Position numbers and translations under genes: made by a program
DNA from: Candidatus Goldiibacteriota bacterium HGW-Goldbacteria-1
Lineage (GTDB): Bacteria; Oederibacteriota; PGYV01
Length of the DNA: 64,000 bases
Direction: 5' to 3'
NCBI GenBank assembly: GCA_002839855.1
Contig: PGYV01000006.1
Coordinates: forward strand, 16,367 to 80,366
Notes under the pieces: generated by a model
Database searches by the model: none
What the model saw: only the letters and a program-made list of their open reading frames with translations
What the model was told of the DNA's origin: nothing
Shown: positions 5,111 through 57,543 of the stretch, piece by piece
Layout: each line of letters begins with the position of its first letter
Position numbering within the stretch: position 1 is the first letter of the stretch

Positions 5111-6103
5111 ATGAGCATTACAATAAAAGATGTTGCCAAAAAAGTCGGGGTTACCGCAACCACGGTATCAATGGTAATCCGCAACGACCCAAGGATAAGC
5201 GATAAAACCAAAGAGAAAGTTTTAAAGGCTGTAAAAGAGATGAATTATTATCCCAATCAGATTGGGCGAAGCCTTGTTAAAGGCAAGACAAATGTAATAG
5301 CCGTTGCGTCATCAATGTTTTATGGCCCTTTTAAAATAGATATCTTTAACGGGATAGACACCGGTGTCGTTGAAACGGATTATACCACACTGCATTTTTC
5401 AGCGCGCGCGGATCAGGAAGCTGAATTGTTAAAGGAAATTGTTTATGGAAGGCGTGCAGACGGCGTAATTGCAATTAACATGAGGACAGAAAAAGAAACA
5501 CTGCAGGCATACAATGATACCGGCCTGCCGATAGTATTTGTTGAAGAGACATTTGACGGTTTTGCCGGAGTTAAAGGCGACAGTTTTAAAGGCGCGTATA
5601 AAGCAACGGAGCGCTTTATTAAAACAGGAAAGAAAAACATAGGTTTAATCAGCGCCGTGTACACTCATCTTTCATGCGTGACCGACAGGGAGAAAGGTTT
5701 TATGCAGGCGCTGGCTGATAACGGGCTTAAATATGATGAAAGCAAGACACTGCGCAGTGCCGCTTATAATTTTCAGGAAGGGCAGGATTTGATGGACAAA
5801 ATTATAAATGATAAAATGCAGGTGGATGCGGTATTTTGCAGCGCCGGAGACCTTGTCGCAATGGGGATGATAAAAAGGGCCAAAGAAAAAGGCGTTAAAA
5901 TTCCCGATGATATTGCAATTATAGGATACGACGGGCTTGATACGGGCTCTCTTGTAACACCTTCGCTTACCACTTTAAAGCAGCCGGTTGTGGATATGGG
6001 GCGCGCTGCTTTTGATATGTTAAAGAAACTTATGGAAGAAAAGAATGTCAAAAAAGAAATAAAGGTATTTGAACCTGAACTGATTATCAGGGAAAGCGCT
6101 TAA
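5111..6103 (+). CDS. LacI-family transcriptional regulator
   Basis: The N-terminal HTH reads IKDVAKKVGVTATTVSMVIRN. A periplasmic-binding-protein-like effector domain follows. Confidence 0.9.
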   Translation: MSITIKDVAKKVGVTATTVSMVIRNDPRISDKTKEKVLKAVKEMNYYPNQIGRSLVKGKTNVIAVASSMFYGPFKIDIFNGIDTGVVETDYTTLHFSARADQEAELLKEIVYGRRADGVIAINMRTEKETLQAYNDTGLPIVFVEETFDGFAGVKGDSFKGAYKATERFIKTGKKNIGLISAVYTHLSCVTDREKGFMQALADNGLKYDESKTLRSAAYNFQEGQDLMDKIINDKMQVDAVFCSAGDLVAMGMIKRAKEKGVKIPDDIAIIGYDGLDTGSLVTPSLTTLKQPVVDMGRAAFDMLKKLMEEKNVKKEIKVFEPELIIRESA

Positions 6104-30932: not shown

Positions 30933-31420
30933 AGGCTTGGACGCTTAGATGCTTAGATGCTTGGCAACATAGAGTCCGCGCGTTTTTGCTTTTGCTCTTG
31001 TAGGGATAGCGCTCCCGCGCTGTCCGGCTCTTTTTGTTTGGTATTAAATGTTTGGTAGGCGCACCTTTTAAGGTGCGGTAGTTGATTTTTTCTTTATGTT
31101 CTGGATCTTTTGTCCTGGTAGACGCGGGTCTTTAGCCCGCGGCAGTTATCTTGTCTTGGAACTTGTAGGGACGGCGTTCCCTCGCTGTCCGGTTCTTTTG
31201 TTGTCTGGTATTAAATGTTTGGTAGGCGCACCTTTTAAGGTGCGGCAGTTGATTTTAATCTGTGAATTAAATCAAAACAACGCGCCCTGAAAGGACGCGG
31301 CTACCACTGCCAAAACAAACTGACCCGCCGCCCCTCGCGTTTTAAACCGTCCCTCCGTGCATCTGTCCCTCCGTCCCTCGTGTTTTCCCAAGCCTCTAAC
31401 CATCCAAGCTTCCAAGCCTC
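30933..31420. repeat. composite palindromic intergenic element containing a duplicated ~95-nt unit
   Basis: Arms GAGGCTTGGACGCTTAGATGCTTAGATGCTTGG (30933-30969) and CCAAGCCTCTAACCATCCAAGCTTCCAAGCCTC (31385-31420). Hairpin A at 31054-31083 and 31220-31251. Hairpin B at 31116-31148. The unit CTTGTAGGGA..CGCTGTCCGG.TCTTTTGTT..GGTATTAAATGTTTGGTAGGCGCACC occurs twice. Confidence 0.8.
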
Positions 31421-31437: not shown

Positions 31438-31499
31438 TTGTCTGAACAAATAATTTCTGTTGACATCAGGCGGGATAATATATATACTTGTCCGAACAA
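31438..31499 (+). promoter_or_regulatory. sigma70-like promoter of the marR-OMF-RND operon flanked by two TTGTCYGAACAA palindromic boxes (candidate MarR operators)
   Basis: -35 TTGACA at 31460-65, a 17-nt spacer, -10 TATACT at 31483-88. TTGTCTGAACAA lies at 31438-49 and TTGTCCGAACAA at 31488-99. Confidence 0.45.
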
Positions 31500-31568
31500 C
31501 AATATAGTTGCTTAGACAAGTATTAACATTCCGTTAACTGTAAATTAGCGGAAGGAGAGCAGGTTGAG

Positions 31569-32051
31569 ATGACAGAACAGAAAAAGGATAAAAGCCTGAA
31601 TAACCAGGTGGGTTGGAACCTTTACCGCACGGGCATGATGATGCGCAGGGAAGGGGCAAGAATGCTTATGAGGTATAACCTTACCCCGGAGCAATGGCAG
31701 ATAATGATGATACTTGGAAGCAAAGGGGCGCTTACGCAGAAGGCGCTTGGCGATATTACGCTTCAGGACGCGCCTGCTGTTTCAAGGGCTGTTCAGCGCC
31801 TTATAGGAAAAAATTACGCCAAGAAAAGTTCAAGCGATAAAGACAAAAGGGCTGTGCAGGTGGAAATTACCGATAAGGGCGTGCTGCTTCTTTCGGATAT
31901 TGTATTAAGAATGAAAAAAGCGCACAGGGTTAAAGATATTTATCAGAACTTTTCTGATGCTAAAAAAAGGCAGCTTATAAAACTGCTTACTGAATTACGG
32001 TCAAATTTGGAAAATAATATACATCCGGATAACTTTGGAGGAGAAAAATGA
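31569..32051 (+). CDS. MarR-family transcriptional regulator
   Basis: A winged-helix region reads LTPEQWQIMMILGSKGALTQKALGD...DKRAVQVEITDKG. Confidence 0.85.
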   Translation: MTEQKKDKSLNNQVGWNLYRTGMMMRREGARMLMRYNLTPEQWQIMMILGSKGALTQKALGDITLQDAPAVSRAVQRLIGKNYAKKSSSDKDKRAVQVEITDKGVLLLSDIVLRMKKAHRVKDIYQNFSDAKKRQLIKLLTELRSNLENNIHPDNFGGEK

Positions 32052-33535
32052 AAAGATTAATAGCACTGGTTTTAAGCGCGGTATTTATCGCGGGCACGGT
32101 ATCGGCGGAGCCTTTGGCATTTAATGACGCTTTAAAAAACGCTTTTGAAAAAAATACATCCATAACAAAAGCGTATTCGGACTATAAAATTTCAAAAGCG
32201 GTGGTAGAACAGACATACGGCATGTTTGATGTAATGCTTGATGCCGGCGTCAATTATATAGAACAGAGGGACCTTGCAACTTCCCCGCTTTCGCCGTCCG
32301 AATTAAAAGTCCTTTCATATAATGTGGGGCTTTCAGAGAAAATATTCACAGGCGGGTTTCTTGGGTTAAAACTTACAAACGACAGAACCACAATGCTTTA
32401 TGGTGATATTGACCCCATGATGGCGGCGTTTTTAGGGCCGGCAGAAACATACGACCCTTCGCTTTCAATATCCCTTTCTCAGCCTCTGTTAAAAGGCGTA
32501 TGGGGCAGGCCTGATGAAAAAGCCATTGAGATAGGGAAAAAATCCATCCTTCTTTCAAAAGAAGCCCTGAAAAATACTGTTTATAATCAGATATCAGCCC
32601 TGCGTGAATCGTTTTATTTTGTATATATGTCCGATGAAATGCTGAAAACACAGAAAAAGCTGTACGAAGACGCAAGCAAGTTCTATAAGGAAACGCTGAA
32701 TTTAAAGCAGATAGGAATGAGGGAAACAAAAGATGTTTATCAGACGCAGGCTTCCTTATTATCGGCTGAAGCGGGCATTACACCTGCCGAGAATCAGCTT
32801 AAGTTTGCCAAAGAACAGTTTTTGAACCTTGCGGGTTACTCTGACGCGCAGTGGGAAAATATAGAAGTTGAAATGACAGGCGCTGTTGAAGAAATAGAGA
32901 TTCCCGGCGGACTGAATTCCCAAATGGAAGAAACCCTTGTTGATTTTCAGCCCGAAGTTGTAATGGCAAAGCTGGGGATGGATATGACCGGAATTGAAGA
33001 TGATATGAAATTCGCGGACATGCTTCCGGAACTTAACCTTATCGGCAGCTATGGAATTGACGGGCTTGGAACAGATATGGACGGTGCGTTTGATACTCTG
33101 TCCACAAATAATTACAATAACTTTATGGTGGGCGTGAATCTTAAATATTCATTTCCTAACAGGGGAAACATAGCCGCAAAAAGCCAGACAGAAGAAAAAC
33201 TGAAGAAAGCCCGGGAAGATTATGAATTTTTAAGAAGGCAGATGAAGATAATGATAAGGGACGGGTACAGAAAACTGCTTTCCGCTAAAAATGATTATGA
33301 AAAGAAAAAAGAAGCCACAGAACTTCAGAATAAAAGGCTTGGTATAGAAGAAAAAGATTTTAAACAGGGCAGGTCTTCAACAAGGGAACTGTTAATGGCG
33401 CAGACAGACGCTTCAACCGCAAAGTTAAGCGAGATAGGTTCTTTTATTACATATATTCAGGCGGTAAATAACTGGAGTAAAATTTCGGGAAAATATAACG
33501 GGTATTTTGAAGAATACCTTAAAGACAAGGAGTAA
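32048..33535 (+). CDS. outer-membrane efflux protein (TolC-like OEP family)
   Basis: A signal peptide is present and the length is ~495 aa. The architecture is two-repeat and coiled-coil rich. The gene overlaps marR by 4 nt and sits immediately upstream of RND pumps. Confidence 0.7.
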   Translation: MKRLIALVLSAVFIAGTVSAEPLAFNDALKNAFEKNTSITKAYSDYKISKAVVEQTYGMFDVMLDAGVNYIEQRDLATSPLSPSELKVLSYNVGLSEKIFTGGFLGLKLTNDRTTMLYGDIDPMMAAFLGPAETYDPSLSISLSQPLLKGVWGRPDEKAIEIGKKSILLSKEALKNTVYNQISALRESFYFVYMSDEMLKTQKKLYEDASKFYKETLNLKQIGMRETKDVYQTQASLLSAEAGITPAENQLKFAKEQFLNLAGYSDAQWENIEVEMTGAVEEIEIPGGLNSQMEETLVDFQPEVVMAKLGMDMTGIEDDMKFADMLPELNLIGSYGIDGLGTDMDGAFDTLSTNNYNNFMVGVNLKYSFPNRGNIAAKSQTEEKLKKAREDYEFLRRQMKIMIRDGYRKLLSAKNDYEKKKEATELQNKRLGIEEKDFKQGRSSTRELLMAQTDASTAKLSEIGSFITYIQAVNNWSKISGKYNGYFEEYLKDKE

Positions 33536-33538
33536 TTC

Positions 33539-36500
33539 ATGGGCCTGATACGTTATTTTGTAAAGAAAAGTATTTTAGTAAATTTAGTGGCGGTTTTCAT
33601 CACGTTAATCGGTTTCTTTATGTTCTTTACATCCGCAAAGGAAGTGTTTCCAAATATTCAGATGGGTTATATTGTAATAACAACCGTATATCCTCAGGCT
33701 GGTTCCGAAGAAGTTGAAAAGCTTGTCACCATACCCATTGAAAACGCCATAGAAGATGTTGACGGGATTGATAAAATCACTTCCTGGACATCTGAAGGCA
33801 TGTCAATGATAGGAATAGAACTTGTCGCTGACGCTAATATCAAAGAGGCTCTTGATGATATTGAAAAAGCGGTTGATGCTATAAGCGATCTGCCGGACGA
33901 AGCAATGGACCCCAATGTTTTTGAGATTGCGTCTGATATCTTTCCGGTTATTAATGTCTCTGTTTCCGGCGGCAAAGATTATGCACAGCTTAGGGAAGCT
34001 TCAAAAAGGCTTGAAGAAAGGCTTCTGGAAGTAAAGGGTGTGGGTGAAATTGAAATGTGGGGTTATTACGACAAAGCCCTTTGGATAGATGTAGACAAGA
34101 ACGAACTTGACAGATACGGCCTTACGCTTTTTAACTTCATTTCAACACTGCAGGACAGGGATATTTCAATGCCCGCGGGAAACAAGACGTTTGACAGGTA
34201 TGAATACGCGGTAAGGTTCCTGTCTCCCATGGACAGCAAAGAAGATGTTGAAAATGTAATCTTACGTTCTAATGATGCGGGCAGAAAACTTCAGGTAAAA
34301 AATGTCGCTGAAGTAATTGACGGTTTTCAGGACGAAGATATGTACCTGCGTTCGCAGGGCCAAAGGGCTGTTCTGTTTGATGTTTTAAAAAATCAGGGCA
34401 AAGACAGCATTAAAATAGCAAAGCAGGTCCGTGAAATAGCGCTTAACCTTGAAAAAGAATTCAACGGCGATATTAAAGTTTCATTTTCCAATGATATGTC
34501 CATTTACCTTCAGGACAGGCTGGATGTGCTTTATTCAAACGGCGCTTTTGGAGCGCTGCTGGTTGTGGGCATGCTTATGCTTCTGCTCCGCCCATCCATA
34601 GCTGTTTTTACCGCGCTTGGCCTTCCGGTGGCTTTTGGAATATCATTTTTTGCAACAAACCAGTTGGGCATTTCGTTCAACATGATGTCAATTTTCGGTT
34701 TCATAATGGTTCTGGGTATGCTTGTGGATGACGCGATTGTTGTCGGAGAAAATGTCTACCGGCATATGGAAATGGGAAAGGATACATATAACGCCGTTGT
34801 GGACGGGACATCGGAAATGATAATGCCGGTTATTGCTTCTGTGTCAACCACTATCGCGGCATTCTCGCCGCTGATGATGATTGGCGGCATGATGGGAGAA
34901 TTCCTATCTGCCATCCCCAAAGTTATAATTATTGCATTGGCAGCGTCTGTAATAGAATGCTTCTTTATTCTGCCTTCTCATCTGGCGGATTTTGTAAAGC
35001 AGAAAACGCGCGGTAAAGGCGAACAGTTACAGGAGCATTGGTTTGAAGTGCTTAAGGAAAAATACGGCAAACTTCTGGAAATATCCCTGTATAAAAGGGG
35101 TACAACCGCGGTTCTGATAGCCCTTATGTTTATTTTTGGAATAGGGCTTGAAATGAGAAACGGTTTTTCTTTTACTGATTCACAGGTAAATGAAATAGAG
35201 ATAAAACTAAAAACTAATAAAGAGTTTTCAGTGGATGATACGGAAAGAATTGTCAAAGATATAGAAAAAATAGTTTTGGAGCTTGATCCAAAAGACCTTG
35301 AAGCGGTTAACAGTTTTGTGGGTATGTGGAATTCCACAAACGGCCCGCCGACTTTTGCCCCGAATATCGGAAATATTGCGGTAATTCTTCATATAGAAGA
35401 TAACAGAAAGACGAAAGACGCCAATAAGATACTTGAAACGTTAAGAAACCGCATAGGCATGCCGGAAGGCGTAAAGACCCTTGATATTAAAGTTGTTAAA
35501 GGCGGCCCGCCGTCAGGCGAAGAAATTGATGTCGCCATATCCGCGGACAGTTTTGACAGGGCGGTTGCGGTTTCAGAAGAGTTTATGGAAGCGGTAAAAA
35601 AGATTAATTTTGCCGATACTAAAAAAGATTCCGCCGCGTTTTATAACCCTGTTGCTTCTTTAAATACGGATTTTGAAGAGGGCAAAAAAGAATTAAGGTT
35701 TGTTGTTGATGAAGCAAAAGCTTCAAGGGCGGGGGTAAACCTTACGCAGGCAAGTATAATAATGAGGTCCGCGATAGCCGGTTTTAAACTGAAAACCATT
35801 AAAAAACTGGGCGAAGACATAGAGGTTAAAGTAAGGGTGAACGAACAGTCAATTGCCACTATTGATGATGTGCTTCAGTTAAAGGTGCCAAACATGATGG
35901 GCAACAGGATTCTGCTGCGGGAAATCGTGAAAGTTGAACAGGGCACAACATATTCGCAGTTAAAGCATATTGACGGCAAAAAGAGCGTATCGGTAATTGG
36001 AACTCTTAAAAAACCCGTTAAAAAAGACAAAGGCGAATCAAACGTCGTTAAAGCAGAAGCGGATAAAACTGAAAAAACAAAGATAAAAAAAGAACCAAAT
36101 ATAAATGTTAACTTTTTTAACATGAAGATGAAAGGCGTTATTAAGGAATTTGAAGAAAAATATAAAGATGTGCGCTTTGAAACAGGCGGCGAGCAGGAAG
36201 CTATGGCGGAAGGTTTTCAGGATTTGGGAAAAGCTTTTGTTGTCGCGCTCTTTCTGATATTTATTATCCTTGCGACGCTGTTTAACTCGCTTGTTCAGCC
36301 GTTTATAATAATGCTTGCCATACCTTTTGGGTTTATAGGCGTTATGTGGACGCTTGTATTCCACGGCATGTCAATTTCATTTATGGCATTCATGGCGTTT
36401 GTGGGTTTAACGGGTGTTGTTGTAAATAATTCTCTTATTATGGTTTCTTTTATAAACGGCCTGATTGCGGAAGGAAAATCCTTTGAACACGCGATTATTG

Positions 36501-36790
36501 AAGGGTCTAAAACAAGATTAAGGCCGATAGTGCTTACGACTTTCACCACGGTAATCGGGCTTATGCCGCTGGGATACGGATGGTTTGGCGGAAATGACCC
36601 TATGATTACGCCTATGGCGGTTGTGTTTGCGTGGGGGCTGCTGTTTGCCTCTTTTGTAACGCTGTTCATTATTCCAAGTTTTATGGTAACTGTTAATAAT
36701 CTTAAAATTTCCATAAAAAGAAAACTTGGAAAAGGCGGGGAAGAGAAAAAGGCTTTCAGTAAGAAAGAAAGCAGTCAGAAGATAAGTTAA
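33539..36790 (+). CDS. RND efflux transporter (AcrB/HAE1-like), paralog 1
   Basis: The 1083-aa protein has 12 TM segments and two large periplasmic loops. Conserved RND motifs are GLPVAFG, VDDAIVVGEN and FNSLVQPFIIMLAIPFG. Confidence 0.9.
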   Translation: MGLIRYFVKKSILVNLVAVFITLIGFFMFFTSAKEVFPNIQMGYIVITTVYPQAGSEEVEKLVTIPIENAIEDVDGIDKITSWTSEGMSMIGIELVADANIKEALDDIEKAVDAISDLPDEAMDPNVFEIASDIFPVINVSVSGGKDYAQLREASKRLEERLLEVKGVGEIEMWGYYDKALWIDVDKNELDRYGLTLFNFISTLQDRDISMPAGNKTFDRYEYAVRFLSPMDSKEDVENVILRSNDAGRKLQVKNVAEVIDGFQDEDMYLRSQGQRAVLFDVLKNQGKDSIKIAKQVREIALNLEKEFNGDIKVSFSNDMSIYLQDRLDVLYSNGAFGALLVVGMLMLLLRPSIAVFTALGLPVAFGISFFATNQLGISFNMMSIFGFIMVLGMLVDDAIVVGENVYRHMEMGKDTYNAVVDGTSEMIMPVIASVSTTIAAFSPLMMIGGMMGEFLSAIPKVIIIALAASVIECFFILPSHLADFVKQKTRGKGEQLQEHWFEVLKEKYGKLLEISLYKRGTTAVLIALMFIFGIGLEMRNGFSFTDSQVNEIEIKLKTNKEFSVDDTERIVKDIEKIVLELDPKDLEAVNSFVGMWNSTNGPPTFAPNIGNIAVILHIEDNRKTKDANKILETLRNRIGMPEGVKTLDIKVVKGGPPSGEEIDVAISADSFDRAVAVSEEFMEAVKKINFADTKKDSAAFYNPVASLNTDFEEGKKELRFVVDEAKASRAGVNLTQASIIMRSAIAGFKLKTIKKLGEDIEVKVRVNEQSIATIDDVLQLKVPNMMGNRILLREIVKVEQGTTYSQLKHIDGKKSVSVIGTLKKPVKKDKGESNVVKAEADKTEKTKIKKEPNINVNFFNMKMKGVIKEFEEKYKDVRFETGGEQEAMAEGFQDLGKAFVVALFLIFIILATLFNSLVQPFIIMLAIPFGFIGVMWTLVFHGMSISFMAFMAFVGLTGVVVNNSLIMVSFINGLIAEGKSFEHAIIEGSKTRLRPIVLTTFTTVIGLMPLGYGWFGGNDPMITPMAVVFAWGLLFASFVTLFIIPSFMVTVNNLKISIKRKLGKGGEEKKAFSKKESSQKIS

Positions 36791-36893
36791 ATGGAAATCC
36801 CGGATTTATTTTACCGGGCATAACAGGCTGAATGTTATAATATAGTGGAAAGGCCGTTTACGGTTTTTCCACTATATATTTACAGGGGTGAAC

Positions 36894-39800
36894 ATGAAGA
36901 TAATTGAATTTTTTGCCAAGAAACACATACTGGTAAATCTTCTGGCTGTGTTTGTGACTGCCGCGGGTTTTTATACTTTTCTTACTTCGCCCAAAGAAGC
37001 TCTGCCTGAAATCAAATTCGGGCTGATAGTGATACAGACTCTTTATCCGTCAGCCGCGCCGCAGGAAGTTGAAAAACTTATTACCACCCCGATAGAAGAG
37101 GCAATAGACGGCATAAAGGGTATTGACAGTATTACATCTTCATCATCTGAAGGGGTTTCAATAGTAAGTATCACTTTAAAATCGGGAATTAAAGACGCTT
37201 CTGTTATTTTAAATGACATTAAAGGTGCAATTGATAAAATACGCACTCTGCCCGCTGACGCGCAGGACCCGGTTGTAAGCGAACTTACAACTGATGAATT
37301 TCCGGTAATACAGCTTTCCGTTTCCGGCGGAAGCAATTACGGCGAATTAAGAGAAGCCGCAAAATTTATAGAAAACAAACTGTCTAAAATCCGCGGCGTT
37401 ACAAAGGTTGATAAAATTGGTTATTATGACAAAGTTATATGGGTTGAATCTGACGCGGAAAAGGAAAGAAAGTACGGCGTTACTCTTTTTAACATTGCCA
37501 ATGCCCTTAAAAACAGGAATATTTCAATACCCGCCGGCAATAAGGTGTTTGACGGTTATGAGAATTCCATCAGGGCCCTTGCGGAAATTAAAGACAGCAA
37601 AGATGTCGGCGGTGTGATTCTAAGGTCAAACGATGTGGGCAGATACATAAATATTGCTGACGTGGCGGATGTTTATGAAGGATTTTCTGATTCAGACTTT
37701 TTAACAAGGGCGGACGGAGAGACCGCGATACTCTTTACAATACTTAAAACAAGCGGCGATGACACGCTTCGTATCAGCAGGGATGTAAAAGAAAATATAA
37801 AAAGCATAAAAACTCTTATACCGCCGTCGGTCAGGATAAAATTTTCCAATGACACATCATTATTTGTCAAAGACAGGCTTAATATTGTATTTTCAAACGG
37901 CATAGCCGGGGCGTTTTTGGTTGTAGCCATCCTGCTTTTGATGCTAAGGCCGTCAATAGCCGTAATGACCGCGCTTGGCCTTCCTGTGGCATTTGGACTT
38001 GCGCTTATAACTTTAAAAGCGCTTGGATTATCCTATAATATGCTTTCGCTTTTTGGCTTTGTTATGGCGCTTGGGCTTCTTGTAGATGACGCCATAGTTG
38101 TGGGGGAAAATGTTTTCAGGCATATGGAAATGGGAAAAAGCGCCATGCAGTCAGCTGTTGACGGGGCCGCGGAAATGGTAATTCCCGTAACCGCGTCAGT
38201 TGCAACCACTATAGCCGCGTTTTTTCCTCTGTTAATGGTAGGCGGTGTGCTTGGAAGTTTTCTGGCGCCTATTCCGACGGCGATTATTATAGCTATTACC
38301 GCGTCATTGATGGAATGCTACATAATACTGCCTTCGCATCTGGCTTATTTCGGGCAGTTTGGCGGTTCCGGCAGGCTGGCCCCGCTGCAGGATTCATTTA
38401 CAAACACACTGAAAAATATTTACCTGAAAGTTCTTACCCCGGTTCTTAAACACAGATGGAAATTTATCGGTGTTATGATGGTTATTTTCCTGGGGGCGGT
38501 TTTCGCGGGCGGGATGAAAGGGGTGGAATTTTTCAGCCAGGAAACTGACGCCATAAACATAAAAATAAAGTGTGATAATCTTTTTTCCATAACGGATACG
38601 GATAAGGTTGTAAGGCAGATAGAACAGAAGCTTGACGGAAATCTTTTAAAAGATGACGTGGAAACAATTTTCTACTATATAGGAAAGTATCCAAATTCCC
38701 AGGGGCAGCCCGAAACCGGCAGCAATCTTGCGCAGATAGAAATTTATCTGAAATTAAAAGCTGAAAGAAAAACCAAAGACACCAATGACGTGATAAGCGC
38801 GGTCAGGCAGTTTGTAGGCAAGCCCGAAGGTGTAACCGACATAAAAATATCCGGAGTCACCAGAGAAGGCGGACCGGGAAGAAATGACATTGATTATTCG
38901 GTTGTGGGCGATTCGTATGAAAAACTTCAGCCTGCGGTTTTGGAACTTATTACGGCCGCGAAAACCATCAGCGGGGTCACTGAAATATCGGCTAACCTTG
39001 AACAGGGAAAGAAAGAACTGCGCCTTATCATGGACGAAAAGAAAGCGTCACAGGCCGGTATTATGCTGTCGGATATAGGAATGATGCTGCGCGGAGCAGT
39101 AGCGGGCGTAAAAGTAACATCAATAAAGAGGGACGGGGAAGATATAGACGTCATAGTAAAGGCAAAAGATTCAGAGATAAAATCATTAGATGACCTGCTG
39201 TCCCTGAAAATCCCAAACAGGACAGGCGCAAATATACCCCTGAAGAATCTGGTATCAATAGAAAAAGGCTACAGCTATTCCGTGCTTAAACACAAGGATA
39301 CAAAAAAGGCAATAAGTGTTCTGGGGTCTATTGATAAAAAAGAAACAACCGTAAACAGCGTAAATTCAAAACTGCTTGAAAAAATAGCGGCGCTTAAGAT
39401 GAAATATCCGGATGTTGAATTTATAACAGGCGGGGAGTTTAAAGAGATGCGGGAAACGTTCAGGTCTTTGGGGAACGCTTTTGCCGTGGCATTATTCCTT
39501 ATATTCATTATATTGGCCACGCTTTTTAATTCACTGATTCAGCCGTTTATTATAATGCTTGCAATACCTTTTGGATTTATGGGAGTTATGCTTACGCTTG
39601 CAATTCACGGCATGCCTGTATCATTCGGAGCGTTTATGGGGTTTGTGGGGCTGTCAGGCGTGGTTGTAAATAACTCTTTGATAATGACGGATTTTATAAA
39701 CAAAAATATTAAAAGCGGGATTGCTTTTGAAGAAGCTGTTTTAAGCGGTGCAATATCAAGGTTAAGGCCTATCTTTCTTACAACCGCAACCACCGCGGCC

Positions 39801-40010
39801 GGTTTATTGCCGCTGGGATACGGCCTTTTCGGCGCAAACGACCCATTCTTAAAACCTGTAGCGCTTGTTTTTGCGTGGGGTCTGATATTTTCCACGGTGG
39901 TAACTCTTTTTATGATACCGGTATTTACCGTTATGATGCACAATTTAAAAGTAACCTTTTTACGCGTTTTCCGCAAAGACAAAAACAACGAATACGCGTT
40001 TAAAAAATAG
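36894..40010 (+). CDS. RND efflux transporter (AcrB/HAE1-like), paralog 2
   Basis: The same RND motifs are present and the protein is about 45% identical to paralog 1 by eye. RBS AGGGG precedes the ATG at 36894. Confidence 0.9.
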   Translation: MKIIEFFAKKHILVNLLAVFVTAAGFYTFLTSPKEALPEIKFGLIVIQTLYPSAAPQEVEKLITTPIEEAIDGIKGIDSITSSSSEGVSIVSITLKSGIKDASVILNDIKGAIDKIRTLPADAQDPVVSELTTDEFPVIQLSVSGGSNYGELREAAKFIENKLSKIRGVTKVDKIGYYDKVIWVESDAEKERKYGVTLFNIANALKNRNISIPAGNKVFDGYENSIRALAEIKDSKDVGGVILRSNDVGRYINIADVADVYEGFSDSDFLTRADGETAILFTILKTSGDDTLRISRDVKENIKSIKTLIPPSVRIKFSNDTSLFVKDRLNIVFSNGIAGAFLVVAILLLMLRPSIAVMTALGLPVAFGLALITLKALGLSYNMLSLFGFVMALGLLVDDAIVVGENVFRHMEMGKSAMQSAVDGAAEMVIPVTASVATTIAAFFPLLMVGGVLGSFLAPIPTAIIIAITASLMECYIILPSHLAYFGQFGGSGRLAPLQDSFTNTLKNIYLKVLTPVLKHRWKFIGVMMVIFLGAVFAGGMKGVEFFSQETDAINIKIKCDNLFSITDTDKVVRQIEQKLDGNLLKDDVETIFYYIGKYPNSQGQPETGSNLAQIEIYLKLKAERKTKDTNDVISAVRQFVGKPEGVTDIKISGVTREGGPGRNDIDYSVVGDSYEKLQPAVLELITAAKTISGVTEISANLEQGKKELRLIMDEKKASQAGIMLSDIGMMLRGAVAGVKVTSIKRDGEDIDVIVKAKDSEIKSLDDLLSLKIPNRTGANIPLKNLVSIEKGYSYSVLKHKDTKKAISVLGSIDKKETTVNSVNSKLLEKIAALKMKYPDVEFITGGEFKEMRETFRSLGNAFAVALFLIFIILATLFNSLIQPFIIMLAIPFGFMGVMLTLAIHGMPVSFGAFMGFVGLSGVVVNNSLIMTDFINKNIKSGIAFEEAVLSGAISRLRPIFLTTATTAAGLLPLGYGLFGANDPFLKPVALVFAWGLIFSTVVTLFMIPVFTVMMHNLKVTFLRVFRKDKNNEYAFKK

Positions 40011-40019
40011 TTTTTTAAT

Positions 40020-40255
40020 ATTGTTATAGTTTCGTCACCCGCATTGTCCGGCTCTTTTGTTTGGTAGGCGCACCTTTTAAGGTGCGGCAGTTTATCTTGT
40101 CTTTGAACTTGTATTAATATCACGAATGCCTGCGATGTCTCAACATTCACGCTATCCGGCTCTGTTTGCTCTTGTATCTTCCAATCATCCAACCCTCCGA
40201 CCTTCTGACCCTCAGTTTTCCTTCCGTCCCTCCGCACATCCGTCCCTCTGATCTA
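40020..40255. repeat. intergenic repeat cluster
   Basis: Hairpin A at 40062-40092. The CCAACCCTCCGACC / CCGTCCCTCCG module at 40181-40250. Confidence 0.75.
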
Positions 40256-40419: not shown

Positions 40420-43400
40420 ATGAACAAACTGAAAGCTAAGCTGCTCTCCTTATTAATAATATTTATTCTGGCAGGCGCGGTATTCGCCGAACCCTATACC
40501 TGGAAAAGCGTGCAGGTGGGCGGCGGCGGATTTGTGACCGGTTTTGTTTATCACCCCCTTGAACAGAACCTTCTGTACGCGCGCACAGACATGGGCGGCG
40601 CTTACAGGTGGGACAATACAAACAGCAAATGGATTCCCATAACAGATTCCATGACAAGGGACAACGCCGATAATATGGGTATTTTAGGAATGGCGGTTGA
40701 CCCGTCTGATGTAAACAGAGTCTACATGCTTTGCGGCAAATACACACAGAGCTGGGCGGTCAATGGGAATTTTCTTGCGTCAAATGATAAAGGCAATACC
40801 TGGACAATTAACGCGCTTAACTTTAAAGTGGGCGGCAACGAAGTTGGCCGCGGCGCAGGCGAAAGGGTGGCGGTTGACCCTAATCTTGGAACTGTAATAT
40901 TTGTCGGAAGCTCCGGCACCACTCCAAGCGGATTATGGAAATCCACGAACAGAGGGACTTCCTTTACACAGGTAACATCATTCCCGCAGACAATAATAAA
41001 TTTTATTATCTTTGATAAAAATTCAACTGTCACAGCCGCCGGCACACAGACGGTTTATGTGGGAGCGGGCGTTAACGGCAGCAGCCTTTATAAAAGCACG
41101 GATGGCGGCGCTACATGGACTTTGGTTGCAGGGCAGCCGGCAGGCGTGCAGGCGTTCCGCGGAGTCTTAATCGGCACCACATTTTATCTTACATACGCAA
41201 GCAATAACGGGCCCAATAACAGCAACGCCACGGGTTATGTTTATAAATACAATACATCAACAGGGGCATTCACCAATATCACGCCTGTTACCACCGGCTT
41301 TGGTTATTCCGGTATATCGGTTGACCCACAGAACACTGACAACATAATTGTTTCCACGCTGTTTCGATGGACGCCAATGGACGCTATTTATTACTCCACA
41401 AACGGCGGCACAAGCTGGACAGAAAAAAATGCGACAGCCACATGGGACAGGACATACGCGCCATATTCTGCTTCAAGCAGCCCGCACTGGGTAACAGATG
41501 TTCAGATAGACCCGTTTAACTCCAACAAAGCAATCTGGAATACCGGATACGGATTATGGATGACTTCTAACCTGCAGAGCGCGCCTGTGAAATGGGAATT
41601 TAATAACAGGGACCTTGAAGAAACGGTTCCACTGCAGATTATAAGCCCGCCTTCCGGCGCTAATCTGCTGACCGCAATGGGCGATATAGACGGTTTCAGG
41701 CACAACGATTTGGATGTTTCTCCGCCGCAGGGAAGGTACAGCCCGAATAAAGGCACCACATTATCAATAGCATTCGCGGAAAGCGTACCGCTTAAAATTG
41801 TAAAAGGGTATAATTCATCTCCGTTCGGCGCTTATTCAACTGACGGCGGCACAACGTGGATAGATTTTTCTTCTTATCCTTCCGGTACTTCAGGCGGCGG
41901 CAGCAAGGCGATTGCAATTTCCGCAAACGGCACTAACATAGTCTGGTCGCCTGCAGGTGCTGCAGTTTCATACTCTACTAATAACGGCTCTTCGTGGACA
42001 ACATCAGCGGGAAGCCCGCCGGCGAATTTTAGCCCGGTGGCTGACAGAATAAATTCAAGTAAGTTTTATTTATATGACGGTGTTACCGGCACAATGTGGC
42101 GTTCCACAAATGGCGGCGCAACATTTGCCGCTGCAGCATCAGGGCTGCCAATGGTTCCAAGCTGGGCCCCGGCTGACGGCGTCTGCGCGGCAGCGCCGGG
42201 CAATGAAGGGCACTTATGGATAACAACAGCCGCAGGCGGACTTTACAGGTCAACTGATTCAGGCGCCACAGCGGTAAAAGTAAACAGCGTTACAGCGGCT
42301 TACAGAATTGGTTTTGGAATGGCGGCATCGGGCTACACGTATCCGGCAATTTATATGCAGGGGATTGTAGGCGGGGCCCTTGGTTTCTACCGGTCAATTG
42401 ACACGGGCGCAACGTGGGAAAGAATAAATACAATTGCCAATCAGTACGGCTACGTACATCAGATAACAGGCGATCCGCGAATTTACGGCAGGTGTTATGT
42501 TTCAGCAGAAGGCCGCGGCGCGCTTTACGGCGATCCTGCAGGCACCCCAACCGACACACCGACAAGCACTTACACAGTAACACCGGGCGGCCCCACATTC
42601 ACATTCACACAGACGCCCACAGATACGGCAACCGCAACGCCTACAAACGCGTACAAACTTATATATGACGGCGATACACCGGGATACATGCTTGCTGACG
42701 GCGCTATTAATACAAATACTGCCGGTTCTTTAACCGAAGGCGCAGGCGGAGTTACAGGAAATGGAATGATAGCCGCTTATACATCCCCGGCTTATTGGGG
42801 GCAGGCGCAGTGGGACATCCCCGGCGCAAACCAGCAGATGGACGGGAATACGGATATTGTATTTAACATAAAAGCTTTAACAGGTACTGTTTCACAGTAT
42901 CTGCTTTATCTTGACTGGACTTACGCGTTTATAACTGTCGCAAACTATCTTGAAGAAGGCGGCGCGATAGACACAACATGGAAGACTGTCAGAATTCCTA
43001 TAGCGGACGTACTTTCCAATACACATACTGCCATTTATTACCTTGCGTTTATTAACAACGCCGATACAGACTACTCCGTAATAGTTGACAATGTCCGCTT
43101 TGAAGGGGCGGCCGCGGTTTCAACATCCACGTTTACAAACACCGCGACACAAACAAGTACTTACACATCAACTTACACGGCTACAAATACATACACGCAA
43201 ACGGAAACAGAAGTGCCCGCGACAAATACTTTTACGCAGACGTATACCGAAACTTTTACTGCCACAGCAACAGACACAAACCTGATATCAACCAATACTT
43301 TTACATCAACGCCTACTGATACCTCAACAGCCACATATACCAATACAGAAACACAGACTTCGGCGGATACCCCCACAGACACATTCACCAACACGTCAAC

Positions 43401-45270
43401 TTATACAAACACAGAAACAGAAACCCCCACGCAGACTTACACATTCACGGACACGGTAACCCCGGGCGGGCCCACATTTACGGACACACCTACAGCCACA
43501 CAGACTTTTACGCCTATGCCTTGCGCGTGCGGTGTGGTTTACGGCAACACCAATACAACCGCAATGGTAGGGGCAAGTATATATAATTCGCTGACCGCCA
43601 TTCCTATATATGTTTCCGAAAACACAATAATGGAAAGCATGGGTGTCCACCTTGTCTCAAGCGCCGGCGGATATATAAAGATGGCGCTTTACACAAATGA
43701 CGGGTCAGCGCCTTTGAATCTTATTGTATCTTCAACAGACACGCCTTCGGCTGCGGGCTGGAATATCGTGGACGTTGTTGATACGCCTTTAACCGCGGGT
43801 GTTTATTGGATAGTTATAAATACAGAAAGCGGAATACTGGTAAGCGCAATGGCGGGAATGCAGAACGCGGAGCTTTACACCGGATATTTCAGTGAAGCTT
43901 CCGCAATGCCGGCAACATTCCCGACAGCCGGTGTATCGCCCGGCAACGGCAGTTACGCGCTTGTAATTAACGCGTGCCCGGGTTCATGTGACACACCCAC
44001 GGAAACGCCAACGCCTGTTCTGCCGTGCATGTGTGAAGATGATTTTGGTTTACAGTATACTCCGACAGCGGCAACGGTAAATATATCCGGTTATGTTTCC
44101 GCAAACGTTTATTATATGGGATATAACGGCACATTAAGCGGAATTGACCTGCACGTGGAATCGGGTTCGGGATATGTCCGCCTTGCGGTTTATTCAAATG
44201 ACAATTCCACGGGGACAAATGTCCCTTACATACTGCAGGTGCAGACAGAAGAAACTGCGGTAACAACAGGGGATAACTTAATACCGCTGCCGTCAGCTCA
44301 TTTGAATTCAGGAATCTATTGGATAGCAATTCAAATGTCGCCCGGACTTATGGTTTCAAGGGATATAGGCAGCAGCGGCGATGAAATGTATTATGAAATG
44401 ACTTACGGAAATTTTCCAGGATTTCTGCCGTGGCCAATGGGGCAAAGCGCGGGCAATTGGGCATTCAAGGTAAACTACTGCCCGGATACCTGCAATACCC
44501 CTACAGAGACTTTTACAGCCACTTATACTTACACAGACACACAGACGGCGACATTTACGCAGACGTACACAGAAACATATACCGCAACAGAAACAGTTAC
44601 AACAGGCGGGCCTACATTTACGTTTACTGATACGCCCACAGAAACCTTTACAGAAACTGCGACAGAAATATTTACAGAGACTCCCACGGAAACAGCGGCA
44701 GAGACTGCGACATACACAAACACCGTCCCGCCCGCGTCCACTTCAACATACACGCATACAATCACTGATACATACACTTATACAGCCACGCACACTTATA
44801 CAAACACAGCGACTTTTTCACACACAAACACTTTAATACCTTCAGACACTTACACACAGACTCCGTCACAGACGCCTACAAACACCAACACTTACACGGC
44901 AACAGTAAGTGTTCCCACAAACACATTCACGCCCACACCCGTGGCAACAGAAGCGGAATTTAAGGTGAAAGACCAGCTTGCTTACCCGAACCCGGTAAAC
45001 CCCGGCGACAACCCGTATATTTTTGTGAAGTATTACGCCACAAGAAATTACAAAGAGGTTCATTTCAGAATGTATTCGTCGTCGTTAAGGCTGGTGGATG
45101 AAATCGCGTATAAAAATTCTTATACAGCGGGCAATCACGTAATCCCGATACCGGATAAACATTTTAAAGGCCTCGCCAACGGCGCTTATTACTATTTAAT
45201 TCTGCTTATTGACAACGACGGCAAAGAAGCCCGCGGCCCGGTAGGGAAGATAATAGTTCTTAAGAAGTGA
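40420..45270 (+). CDS. secreted BNR/Asp-box repeat beta-propeller glycoside hydrolase (GH74-like) with a CBM-like domain, two Cys-bracketed unknown domains, T-X linkers and C-terminal sorting domain
   Basis: At least 8 S-x-D-x-G-x-T-W type motifs are present (STDGGATW, STNGGTSW, STDGGTTW, STNNGSSW, STNGGATF, STDSGATA, SIDTGATW). The CBM-like domain at 42655-43110 is homologous to the one at 7244-7700. The tandem domains lie at 43505-43990 and 44000-44490. The C-terminal domain lies at 44940-45267. Confidence 0.6.
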   Translation: MNKLKAKLLSLLIIFILAGAVFAEPYTWKSVQVGGGGFVTGFVYHPLEQNLLYARTDMGGAYRWDNTNSKWIPITDSMTRDNADNMGILGMAVDPSDVNRVYMLCGKYTQSWAVNGNFLASNDKGNTWTINALNFKVGGNEVGRGAGERVAVDPNLGTVIFVGSSGTTPSGLWKSTNRGTSFTQVTSFPQTIINFIIFDKNSTVTAAGTQTVYVGAGVNGSSLYKSTDGGATWTLVAGQPAGVQAFRGVLIGTTFYLTYASNNGPNNSNATGYVYKYNTSTGAFTNITPVTTGFGYSGISVDPQNTDNIIVSTLFRWTPMDAIYYSTNGGTSWTEKNATATWDRTYAPYSASSSPHWVTDVQIDPFNSNKAIWNTGYGLWMTSNLQSAPVKWEFNNRDLEETVPLQIISPPSGANLLTAMGDIDGFRHNDLDVSPPQGRYSPNKGTTLSIAFAESVPLKIVKGYNSSPFGAYSTDGGTTWIDFSSYPSGTSGGGSKAIAISANGTNIVWSPAGAAVSYSTNNGSSWTTSAGSPPANFSPVADRINSSKFYLYDGVTGTMWRSTNGGATFAAAASGLPMVPSWAPADGVCAAAPGNEGHLWITTAAGGLYRSTDSGATAVKVNSVTAAYRIGFGMAASGYTYPAIYMQGIVGGALGFYRSIDTGATWERINTIANQYGYVHQITGDPRIYGRCYVSAEGRGALYGDPAGTPTDTPTSTYTVTPGGPTFTFTQTPTDTATATPTNAYKLIYDGDTPGYMLADGAINTNTAGSLTEGAGGVTGNGMIAAYTSPAYWGQAQWDIPGANQQMDGNTDIVFNIKALTGTVSQYLLYLDWTYAFITVANYLEEGGAIDTTWKTVRIPIADVLSNTHTAIYYLAFINNADTDYSVIVDNVRFEGAAAVSTSTFTNTATQTSTYTSTYTATNTYTQTETEVPATNTFTQTYTETFTATATDTNLISTNTFTSTPTDTSTATYTNTETQTSADTPTDTFTNTSTYTNTETETPTQTYTFTDTVTPGGPTFTDTPTATQTFTPMPCACGVVYGNTNTTAMVGASIYNSLTAIPIYVSENTIMESMGVHLVSSAGGYIKMALYTNDGSAPLNLIVSSTDTPSAAGWNIVDVVDTPLTAGVYWIVINTESGILVSAMAGMQNAELYTGYFSEASAMPATFPTAGVSPGNGSYALVINACPGSCDTPTETPTPVLPCMCEDDFGLQYTPTAATVNISGYVSANVYYMGYNGTLSGIDLHVESGSGYVRLAVYSNDNSTGTNVPYILQVQTEETAVTTGDNLIPLPSAHLNSGIYWIAIQMSPGLMVSRDIGSSGDEMYYEMTYGNFPGFLPWPMGQSAGNWAFKVNYCPDTCNTPTETFTATYTYTDTQTATFTQTYTETYTATETVTTGGPTFTFTDTPTETFTETATEIFTETPTETAAETATYTNTVPPASTSTYTHTITDTYTYTATHTYTNTATFSHTNTLIPSDTYTQTPSQTPTNTNTYTATVSVPTNTFTPTPVATEAEFKVKDQLAYPNPVNPGDNPYIFVKYYATRNYKEVHFRMYSSSLRLVDEIAYKNSYTAGNHVIPIPDKHFKGLANGAYYYLILLIDNDGKEARGPVGKIIVLKK

Positions 45271-55367: not shown

Positions 55368-57543
<2,176 letters not shown>

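What the first reader, a model, noticed from the sequence alone, without database searches (positions are those of the whole stretch)
31569..40010. MarR-OMF-RND-RND efflux operon with no periplasmic adaptor (MFP) gene
Tripartite RND pumps normally need a membrane-fusion protein encoded next to the pump. Here a TolC-like OMF and two paralogous RND transporters follow a MarR regulator, with 4-nt and 3-nt gene overlaps indicating translational coupling. No MFP gene is present. Two tandem RND genes recall heteromeric pumps such as MdtBC. Sitting between polysaccharide-degradation loci, the operon could export something other than drugs, for example oligosaccharide-derived or lignin-derived toxic compounds.
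Basis: partly seen in the sequence, partly recalled or inferred. Interest (0 to 1): 0.55.

Follow-up and report, generated by a model that had tools for sequence, protein, structure and literature searches.

The report
Efflux pump operon lacking its adaptor
This candidate-phylum bacterium carries a drug-efflux-type operon (regulator, outer-membrane channel, two inner-membrane pumps) with no gene for the periplasmic adaptor considered essential for such pumps, and the same adaptor-less layout is conserved in a whole clade of related pumps across many phyla, so it may be a naturally two-part pump.

Summary
The four genes are real and sit at the stated coordinates. They are MarR (31569-32051), a TolC-type outer-membrane factor or OMF (32048-33535), RND1 (33539-36790) and RND2 (36894-40010). 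The window comes from Ca. Goldiibacteriota HGW-Goldbacteria-1.

Two junction details need correcting. OMF and RND1 are separated by a 3-nt spacer, not an overlap. RND1 and RND2 are separated by 103 nt containing a 17-bp hairpin.

No membrane-fusion protein (MFP, the periplasmic adaptor) is encoded anywhere in the 64 kb, by Pfam or by a six-frame search with my own MFP model.

The absence is a lineage trait, not a local accident. In 22 non-redundant related loci, 0 have an MFP and 19 have an OMF fused tightly to the RND gene. These loci come from Goldbacteria, Omnitrophota, Spirochaetota, Planctomycetota, Zetaproteobacteria and others. In the next-closest RND lineages, 50 of 60 loci have an MFP. 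The adaptor-less pumps form one clade (bootstrap 91/100) nested among adaptor-bearing pumps.

Both proteins have canonical folds. The clade carries its own conserved motifs at the RND crown hairpins and at the OMF periplasmic tips.

Best reading: a MarR-controlled two-component RND-OMF pump that docks directly. An MFP encoded elsewhere in the genome could not be excluded. The cellulase neighbourhood is not conserved, so the substrate guess has no support.

The parts
31438..31520 (+). Promoter-like site (TTGACA-17 nt-TATACT, 31460-31488) flanked and overlapped by three copies of a TTGTC[TC]GAACAA-type box (31438-31449, 31488-31499, inverted copy about 31508-31520). Putative MarR operator.
   Evidence: 11 of 12 consensus match, the best in the region; direct repeat D2 and inverted repeats I1 and I2. 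The operator role is inferred.
31569..32051 (+). MarR-family transcriptional regulator (160 aa).
   Evidence: MarR_2 E 5e-13, MarR E 4e-10; only sub-threshold matches to named MarR equivalogs. A MarR gene precedes the OMF in most clade loci.
32048..33535 (+). TolC-type outer-membrane factor (495 aa). It has a signal peptide without a lipobox. It overlaps MarR by 4 nt.
   Evidence: OEP E 3e-33, two repeats. AF2 pLDDT 87, long helices of 67 and 68 aa. Foldseek probability 1.0, TM 0.63-0.73 to TolC, CmeC and OprM at 12-16% identity; no lipobox.
33539..36790 (+). RND permease 1 (1083 aa), AcrB-type with complete docking domain. A Lys-rich disordered insert lies at residues 827-853.
   Evidence: 100% identical to a Ca. 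Goldiibacteriota HGW-Goldbacteria-1 protein. AF2 pLDDT 80.5. TM 0.84-0.88 to AcrB, AdeJ and AcrD; domain lengths. D407, D408, R971 and T978 equivalents kept.
36840..36877 (+). 17-bp stem-loop in the RND1-RND2 spacer, with no clear U-tract. Possible attenuator or mRNA-processing or stabilising element.
   Evidence: dG -36.4 kcal/mol, z = -5.4, 0 of 200 shuffles as stable; a terminator-like hairpin at the same position in L005, none in L011.
36894..40010 (+). RND permease 2 (1038 aa from ATG 36894; the longest ORF starts at GTG 36888). It is a paralogue of RND1 at 47-48% identity.
   Evidence: the RND2-type group has bootstrap 100/100, with orthologues in L005 and L011. The second RND gene of L100 was not placed in the tree.
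40063..40087 (+). Copy of a genome-wide intergenic hairpin repeat (GGTAGGCGCACCTTTTAAGGTGCGG) 53 nt after the RND2 stop. Likely the operon's 3' boundary.
   Evidence: 10 copies in the window against 0 expected, nearly all just downstream of genes..

Best explanation
This is a MarR-controlled efflux operon from a distinct, phylogenetically coherent clade of AcrB-type RND pumps. The clade has lost the periplasmic adaptor (MFP). Its members are encoded only with a non-lipoprotein TolC-type OMF, whose gene is translationally coupled to the RND gene.

Most likely mechanism:
- The RND trimer and the OMF trimer form a two-component conduit by direct docking. The two crown beta-hairpins of the RND docking domain would meet the helix-turn-helix tips of the OMF.
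- MarR represses the operon at boxes overlapping the promoter until a ligand, typically a phenolic or other toxic compound, releases it.
- RND2 is an old accessory paralogue. It carries the same crown motifs and probably uses the same OMF, either as an alternative homotrimer or in mixed trimers.

Shown: gene content, absence of an MFP in the 64-kb window and in the 2-8 kb of flank held on each side for 21 further clade loci, clade monophyly, canonical folds, clade-specific motifs, and tight OMF-RND coupling.

Inferred: direct docking, operator function, substrate class, and the role of RND2.
For: 1. No MFP was found in the window by Pfam or by six-frame HMM. The same HMM finds MFPs next to 50 of 60 more distant RND loci.
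2. In 22 non-redundant clade loci, 0 have an MFP and 19 have an adjacent OMF (Fisher p = 1.3e-12 against outside loci). Eight Pfam-annotated contexts all show OEP-RND without an MFP: seven drawn from public gene calls and one more from Bdellovibrionota.
3. The adaptor-less RNDs are monophyletic (NJ bootstrap 91/100) and nested among MFP-bearing lineages, so the loss is derived.
4. OMF-to-RND junctions run from -8 to +10 nt in 22 of 23 cases, which implies co-translation of two partners.
5. RND1 keeps a full AcrB-type docking domain, with DN 86 aa and DC 89 aa, and has TM 0.84-0.88 to AcrB. RNDs that work without an OMF (MmpL3, HpnN) lack this domain, from general knowledge.
6. The clade has invariant motifs at both crown hairpins. 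These are [IV]R[SA]N[DE]xG and xN..G, at AcrB positions 252/254 and 793. It also has motifs at both OMF tips, G[LM]xE..D and [FY]..GRS[ST]. They differ from the motifs of adaptor-bearing relatives.
7. No other gene is conserved next to the module, so no non-homologous adaptor candidate exists.
8. A natural pump with a hairpin-less adaptor (BesA) already implies closer RND-OMF apposition in some lineages (PMC3807786).
Against: - Whole genomes could not be searched, so an MFP supplied from elsewhere is not excluded. AcrD borrowing AcrA in E. coli is a precedent, from general knowledge.
- In the best-studied pumps the RND and OMF do not touch, and the MFP forms part of the duct and assembles the complex (PMC4754349). 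Direct docking would therefore need a different gating mechanism.
- The OMF helical barrel has standard length. A two-part pump would span only about 17 nm, and whether these organisms have a periplasm that narrow is unknown.
- The sister clades also have conserved crown motifs, though different ones. The clade motifs show remodelling, not contact.
- Some clade members are orphan RNDs with no adjacent OMF (Leptospira L018, L020, L095). In L021 the upstream 487-aa ORF was not checked as a possible divergent OMF.
- No multimer prediction could be run.
Confidence: 0.5

Rival explanations
1. This is a conventional tripartite pump whose adaptor is encoded elsewhere in the genome. A shared or unlinked MFP would bridge this RND and OMF.
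For: Only 64 kb of the genome was visible, and 2-8 kb of flank on each side in relatives. Trans-acting partners exist in E. coli, where AcrD uses AcrA and TolC is unlinked (general knowledge). Canonical assemblies need the MFP (PMC4754349; PMC3807786).
Against: The MFP is normally the partner most tightly linked to the RND gene (50 of 60 outside loci). Here it is absent in 22 of 22 loci from many phyla, while the usually looser partner, the OMF, is fused to the RND gene. The loss coincides with a switch from NodT-type lipoprotein OMFs to a non-lipoprotein TolC-type OMF. It also coincides with remodelled crown and tip motifs.
Confidence: 0.25
2. The RND and OMF do not form a sealed complex. The RND acts alone, moving substrate from the inner membrane or cytoplasm to the periplasm or outer leaflet. 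The OMF acts separately, or only transiently, as an exit.
For: Some clade members are orphan RNDs without an adjacent OMF (L018 Leptospira, L020, L095). MFP- and OMF-independent RNDs exist (MmpL3, HpnN, SecDF; general knowledge).
Against: Translational coupling of OMF and RND holds in 22 of 23 junctions. The full TolC-docking domain is retained. TolC-type channels are closed at rest and need a partner to open (general knowledge).
Confidence: 0.13
3. RND1 and RND2 form an obligate MdtBC-like heterotrimer. This is the first reader's sub-hypothesis and is compatible with any of the assembly models above.
For: The tandem pair is ancient. The window, L005 and L011 each have one RND1-type and one RND2-type gene (bootstrap 100/100 each), and L100 also has two adjacent RND genes. 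Some copies in relatives have DN instead of DD in TM4, hinting at division of labour.
Against: RND1-type genes occur alone with the OMF in L001, L004 and L099, so homotrimers suffice. Both window copies keep the full proton relay. The genes are separated by 103 nt with a hairpin, and in L005 by a terminator-like element. They are not MdtB/MdtC orthologues, and no MdtA is present.
Confidence: 0.25
4. The missing MFP is an artefact: a small, frameshifted or highly divergent adaptor gene was overlooked.
For: A very divergent adaptor, or a non-homologous protein doing the same job, could escape an HMM.
Against: A six-frame stop-to-stop search at E <= 10 found nothing in the window or in 21 clade loci. 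Intergenic space is 3 nt and 103 nt, and no unassigned ORF lies within the operon. No other conserved neighbour exists.
Confidence: 0.02

Closest known systems
AcrAB-TolC / MexAB-OprM (HAE-1 tripartite RND pumps)
   Same: The RND permease has the same fold, with 12 TM helices, porter subdomains and DN/DC docking subdomains (TM 0.84-0.88). It keeps the D407/D408/R971/T978 proton-relay equivalents. The OMF has the TolC fold with helices of the same length. A MarR-family regulator is present, as with MexR or MarR.
   Different: No MFP gene is present. Identity is only 18-20% to solved RNDs and 12-16% to solved OMFs. The TM10 lysine (K940) is replaced by Asn. Asn is found at that position in 50 of the 54 MFP-bearing sequences compared, so this is not peculiar to the clade. 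Scores fall below all NCBIfam curated cut-offs. In AcrAB-TolC the RND and OMF do not touch (PMC4754349).
BesABC of Borrelia burgdorferi (adaptor lacking the alpha-hairpin)
   Same: This natural RND pump lacks the adaptor element that normally recruits and opens the OMF, which implies much closer RND-OMF apposition (PMC3807786). Several members of the present clade are also from Spirochaetota.
   Different: [quoted passage not shown] Here no adaptor-like protein of any kind was detected.
MdtABC (two tandem RND paralogues forming a heterotrimer)
   Same: Two adjacent paralogous RND genes lie in one cluster.
   Different: There is no MdtA-type MFP. The two genes are not orthologous to MdtB/MdtC and are separated by a structured spacer. 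The RND1 type occurs alone in close relatives.
Adaptor- and OMF-independent RNDs (MmpL3, HpnN, SecDF)
   Same: They work without an MFP.
   Different: Those proteins lack the TolC-docking domain and are not encoded with an OMF (general knowledge). Here the docking domain is complete and the OMF gene is translationally coupled to the RND gene.

Membership tests
RND superfamily, AcrB-type (Pfam ACR_tran) | 12-TM permease with two large periplasmic loops forming porter and docking subdomains | tested here: met
   (E 2e-152 and 6e-184); domain-by-domain lengths match AcrB, MdtB, MdtC and CusA. AF2 model with TM 0.84-0.88 to AcrB.
RND superfamily, AcrB-type (Pfam ACR_tran) | Proton-relay residues D407, D408, K940, R971, T978 (AcrB numbering) | tested here: inconclusive
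   D407, D408, R971 and T978 are kept in both paralogues. The K940 position is Asn, as in 50 of the 54 MFP-bearing sequences compared.
NCBIfam multidrug RND permease subfamilies (NF033617, NF000282, TIGR00915, TIGR00914) | Score above the curated cut-off | tested here: not met
   Best scores are 446 bits (RND1) and 513 bits (RND2) against a cut-off of 1250 for NF033617.
Outer membrane factor (TolC/OEP family) | Two OEP repeats; TolC fold with a 12-helix barrel and a beta-barrel | tested here: met
   The score is below the TIGR01844 cut-off (86 against 225 bits). There is no PDB sequence match at E <= 1e-3, so this is a divergent member.
Canonical tripartite RND efflux system (RND + MFP + OMF) | MFP/periplasmic adaptor gene in the operon or adjacent | tested here: not met
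   for the window. for 22 of 22 clade loci.
Canonical tripartite RND efflux system (RND + MFP + OMF) | An MFP somewhere in the genome that serves this pump | not testable with these tools
   Only the 64-kb window and 2-8 kb flanks of relatives could be read.
MdtBC-type heteromeric RND | Orthology to MdtB/MdtC with an MdtA adaptor upstream | tested here: not met
   the window paralogues group with each other's lineage, far from MdtB/MdtC. No MFP was found.
MdtBC-type heteromeric RND | Physical heterotrimer of the two paralogues | not testable with these tools
   No multimer prediction or experiment was available.
BesABC-type pump (hairpin-less adaptor) | [quoted passage not shown] | tested here: not met
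   the MFP HMM covers those domains and gave no hit at E <= 10. Caveat: the HMM was not validated on BesA itself.
MarR-family regulator | Winged helix-turn-helix MarR domain | tested here: met
   (MarR_2 at 49 bits against a cut-off of 27). No named equivalog reaches its cut-off.
OMF-independent RNDs (MmpL/HpnN type) | Absence of the TolC-docking subdomains | tested here: not met
   DN 86 aa and DC 89 aa are present..

The most novel reading that the evidence does not exclude
A widespread, previously undescribed class of naturally adaptor-free, two-component RND-OMF efflux pumps. The RND crown hairpins (R-x-N-[DE]-x-G and N-x-x-G) dock directly on, and open, a TolC-type channel (tips G-[LM]-x-E and G-R-S-[ST]). 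The class is found mainly in uncultured phyla: Goldbacteria, Omnitrophota, Spirochaetota, Planctomycetota, Bdellovibrionota and Zetaproteobacteria. It would be a natural realisation of the abandoned 'direct docking' model of RND pump assembly.
Probability: 0.45. Interest if true: 0.8.

Novelty: new variant of a known kind. Interest (0 to 1): 0.65.

Why it matters
Periplasmic adaptors are regarded as essential parts of every RND-OMF pump. In solved assemblies they form the duct between two proteins that do not touch (PMC3807786, PMC4754349).

A conserved, multi-phylum clade that keeps the OMF tightly coupled to the RND but has no adaptor has two possible explanations:
- It is a different assembly solution, with direct docking and adaptor-free gating of a TolC-type channel.
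- It is a systematic case of trans-encoded adaptors.

Either answer changes how efflux systems are annotated in uncultured bacteria. Either also gives a minimal two-gene system for studying how OMF channels are opened.

The question is directly testable by whole-genome MFP searches, multimer modelling and expression of two genes.

Tried and rejected
- Looked for an overlooked adaptor with Pfam on all large ORFs and with a six-frame HMM at E <= 10. Nothing was found.
- Looked for a domain insertion in the RND or OMF that could replace an adaptor. RND domain lengths are standard. The only RND1-specific insert is a disordered Lys-rich stretch absent from RND2 and variable in relatives. OMF helices and the equatorial domain have standard length.
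- At first I took the ~40-aa extension of the first beta segment of the clade OMFs as a signature linked to adaptor loss. I rejected this. 147 of 150 top OMF relatives have the extension. Relatives carrying it also occur as orphan OMFs (P0147, P0145) and in an OMF-MFP-ABC type-1 secretion operon (P0171). It is a lineage feature of this OMF subfamily.
- Looked for another conserved neighbour as a non-homologous adaptor. None was found beyond the synteny of close relatives.
- Considered the substrate inference from the cellulase neighbourhood and rejected it, because the context is not conserved.
- Literature searches for adaptor-less RND-OMF systems found nothing relevant. Nikaido's 2018 review could not be read.
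- PDB sequence search with the OMF gave no hit.
Full report
**Observation**

The interval 31569-40010 holds four + strand ORFs. Pfam identifies them as a MarR-family regulator, an OEP/TolC-family outer-membrane factor (OMF) and two ACR_tran RND permeases. NCBIfam gives only sub-threshold hits to generic RND and TolC models, so all four are divergent family members. RND1 is 100% identical to a protein of Candidatus Goldiibacteriota bacterium HGW-Goldbacteria-1.

- MarR and OMF overlap by 4 nt, ATGA.
- OMF and RND1 are separated by a 3-nt spacer, with an AAGGAG Shine-Dalgarno sequence over the OMF stop.
- RND1 and RND2 are separated by 103 nt. The RND2 start at ATG 36894 aligns with the RND1 start.
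- That spacer contains a very stable 17-bp hairpin at 36840-36877 (dG -36.4 kcal/mol, z = -5.4).

The operon boundaries look clear. The best sigma-70-like promoter match in the region (11 of 12) lies at 31460-31488. It is flanked and overlapped by three TTGTC[TC]GAACAA-type boxes that are candidate MarR operators. A copy of a genome-wide hairpin repeat follows the RND2 stop at 40063-40087.

**Is the adaptor really missing?**

Pfam scans of every large ORF in the 64 kb found no HlyD/MFP-type domain. I then built an MFP (membrane-fusion protein, the periplasmic adaptor) HMM. Its seeds were E. coli AcrA, MdtA and CusB, and I iterated it on related loci. The HMM detects an MFP beside the RND gene in 50 of 60 more distant loci. 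With all filters off and E <= 10, it finds only noise in a six-frame translation of the whole window and of 21 related loci. The 3-nt and 103-nt spacers leave no room for a hidden gene.

**Relatives**

Public gene calls around close and distant homologues of RND1 show the same module and no MFP. The module is a regulator (usually MarR), then OEP, then RND.

| Homologue | Identity to RND1 | Source (where named) |
|---|---|---|
| P0004 | 59% | |
| P0006 | 57% | |
| P0013 | 52% | |
| P0033 | 36% | |
| P0037 | 36% | Omnitrophica |
| P0103 | 34% | Bdellovibrionota |
| P0003 | 62% | |
| P0017 | 50% | |

A scan of one genome per species returned 80 loci at 51-27% identity. I annotated them with my own HMMs:
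- All loci at roughly 33% identity or more that carry an OMF show [MarR]-OMF-RND(-RND) without an MFP.
- These come from Spirochaetia, Brevinematales, Omnitrophota, Planctomycetia, Zetaproteobacteria, Neomarinimicrobiota and Thioalkalispiraceae.
- Loci at 27-30% identity nearly all show (OMF)-MFP-RND.
- Inside the clade, 0 of 22 loci have an MFP and 19 of 22 have an adjacent OMF. Outside it, 50 of 60 have an MFP (Fisher p = 1.3e-12; the loci are not phylogenetically independent).

An NJ tree of 87 full-length RNDs, with AcrB, MdtB, MdtC and CusA as references, puts all adaptor-less OMF-linked RNDs in one clade. That clade is nested among MFP-bearing lineages and has bootstrap support of 91/100. 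The loss is therefore derived and old.

OMF-to-RND junctions in the clade run from -8 to +10 nt in 22 of 23 cases. No other gene is conserved next to the module.

A few clade members are orphan RNDs with neither partner adjacent. These are Leptospira L018, Spirochaetota L020 and L095, and possibly L021, where the upstream 487-aa ORF was not checked as a divergent OMF.

**The proteins**

RND1:
- The AF2 model (pLDDT 80.5) superposes on AcrB, AdeJ and AcrD with TM 0.84-0.88.
- Every subdomain, including the OMF-docking DN and DC subdomains, has the length seen in MdtB, MdtC and CusA. Nothing in the RND replaces an adaptor.
- Both paralogues keep the equivalents of AcrB D407, D408, R971 and T978.
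- The K940 position is Asn, as in 50 of the 54 MFP-bearing sequences compared.

OMF:
- The AF2 model (pLDDT 87) has the TolC fold (Foldseek probability 1.0, TM 0.63-0.73, 12-16% identity).
- Its long helices are 67 and 68 residues, the same as in TolC.
- It has no lipobox. By contrast, 17 of 22 OMFs in MFP-bearing sister operons are NodT/OprM-type lipoproteins. The OMF lineage changed together with the loss of the MFP.
- Clade OMFs have a first beta segment about 40 aa longer than usual. That feature belongs to a large OMF subfamily (147 of 150 top relatives). Relatives with it also occur as orphan OMFs and as a type-1-secretion OMF. It is not tied to adaptor loss.

Motifs:
- Residues invariant in the clade but rare in sister RNDs include both crown hairpin tips.
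- The DN hairpin reads [IV]R[SA]N[DE]xG (RND1 R243 and N245, AcrB positions 252 and 254).
- The DC hairpin reads xN..G (RND1 N785, AcrB position 793). Sister RNDs have T..DG and RTPxG instead.
- These are the hairpins that face the OMF. From general knowledge, they could be cross-linked to TolC tips (Tamura et al. 2005, cited).
- The OMF tips also carry clade-specific motifs: G[LM]xE..D and [FY]..GRS[ST], against Y..GL.[DT]Y in sister OMFs.
- The opposite charges (Arg and acid on each side) fit a direct interface, but this is inference only.

**Mechanism**

In AcrAB-TolC and MexAB-OprM the RND and OMF do not touch, and the adaptor forms the connecting duct (PMC4754349). Adaptors are described as essential (PMC3807786). 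The Borrelia adaptor BesA lacks the alpha-hairpin, which already implies closer RND-OMF apposition in some bacteria.

The clade combines four features: an OMF coupled to an RND with an intact docking domain, no adaptor, remodelled crown and tip motifs, and no alternative conserved partner. The best-supported explanation is a two-component pump with direct crown-to-tip docking, repressed by MarR. I put this at about 0.5.

The main rival is an MFP encoded elsewhere, at about 0.25. A looser 'RND alone plus separate OMF' model is less likely, given the translational coupling and the retained docking domain. An annotation artefact is essentially excluded.

**The two RND genes**

RND1 and RND2 are 47-48% identical. 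The window, L005 and L011 each have one RND1-type and one RND2-type gene. Each group has bootstrap 100/100, so the duplication predates those lineages. L100 also carries two adjacent RND genes.

RND1-type genes occur alone with the OMF in L001, L004 and L099. RND2 is therefore accessory, and RND1 homotrimers must be functional.

The spacer between the paralogues is structured in the window. It looks like an intrinsic terminator in L005, is unstructured in L011, and is only 17 nt in L100. Co-transcription and MdtBC-like heterotrimers remain possible but unsupported. The two genes are not MdtB/MdtC orthologues.

**Substrate**

Upstream genes are indeed GH5, GH9 and GH116 enzymes with malectin and CBM9 domains. 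Orthologous operons elsewhere sit next to unrelated housekeeping genes. The MarR matches no characterised equivalog. The substrate is unknown. MarR control fits inducible efflux of toxic small molecules, from general knowledge.

**Novelty**

Full-text searches found no description of adaptor-less OMF-RND systems. No solved structure comes from this clade; the nearest are MexK and TriC at E of about 1e-64 to 1e-58. I classify this as a new variant of a known kind, and it is moderately to highly interesting. The key question, direct docking or a trans adaptor, can be answered by whole-genome MFP searches, multimer modelling and a two-gene reconstitution.

Noticed in passing
window 10580, 15210, 18621, 31054, 31221, 40063, 45324, 45380(-), 45742(-), 55185: A REP-like intergenic hairpin repeat (GGTAGGCGCACCTTTTAAGGTGCGG and variants) occurs 10 times against 0 expected, almost always just downstream of a gene. 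It is often accompanied by 'GTCCGGCTCTTTTGT' and by 'CCGTCCCTCCG' tracts, for example at 31340-31380 and 40220-40250. It is probably a genome-wide terminator or repeat element family. Copies flank the efflux operon on both sides.
   Followed up: partly
window 6131-30932 and 55368-56450: A dense array of large secreted glycoside hydrolases (GH5, GH9 with CelD_N, GH116), many fused to malectin or CBM9 domains. A LacI regulator lies at 5111-6103. T9SS-related proteins (CHU_C at 82-921; PorV/OmpA-like at 52312-54255) are also present. This fits the cellulolytic lifestyle proposed for Goldbacteria.
   Followed up: no
window 40420-45270: A 1616-aa ORF immediately downstream of the operon has no Pfam domain (best hit DUF6629, E 0.017). 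Large domain-less ORFs also follow the RND gene in L009 (1197 aa) and L095 (1278 aa), but they are not detectably homologous to each other.
   Followed up: partly
window 36017-36097 (RND1 residues 827-853): A Lys-rich, predicted-disordered insert (pLDDT < 50) lies in the PC2 subdomain of RND1. It is absent from RND2 and varies among RND1 orthologues.
   Followed up: partly
RND alignment, AcrB position 940 (RND1 N963): The TM10 proton-relay lysine of HAE-1 pumps is Asn (motif GVVVN[DN]S) in all 20 adaptor-less sequences and in 50 of the 54 MFP-bearing sequences compared. These pumps may therefore use a different proton-relay geometry from AcrB.
   Followed up: partly
L022 (JAIWAR010000002.1, labelled Methanosarcinales archaeon): A complete MarR-OMF-RND module closely related to Omnitrophota versions sits in a MAG labelled as an archaeon. 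Since the module includes an outer-membrane channel, a binning error is more likely than a true archaeal locus.
   Followed up: no
L005 11187-11266: Between the two RND genes of this relative lies a GC-rich hairpin followed by a T-run (intrinsic-terminator-like) and then a TATAAT. This suggests RND2 may be transcribed separately or attenuated in that genome.
   Followed up: partly
L029 (Poribacteria), L031/L034/L035 (Planctomycetaceae): Outside the clade, other RND genes (a tandem pair in L029; 1125-1141 aa proteins in the Planctomycetaceae) also have neither an MFP nor an OMF within the flanks. These may be further independent adaptor-less lineages.
   Followed up: no
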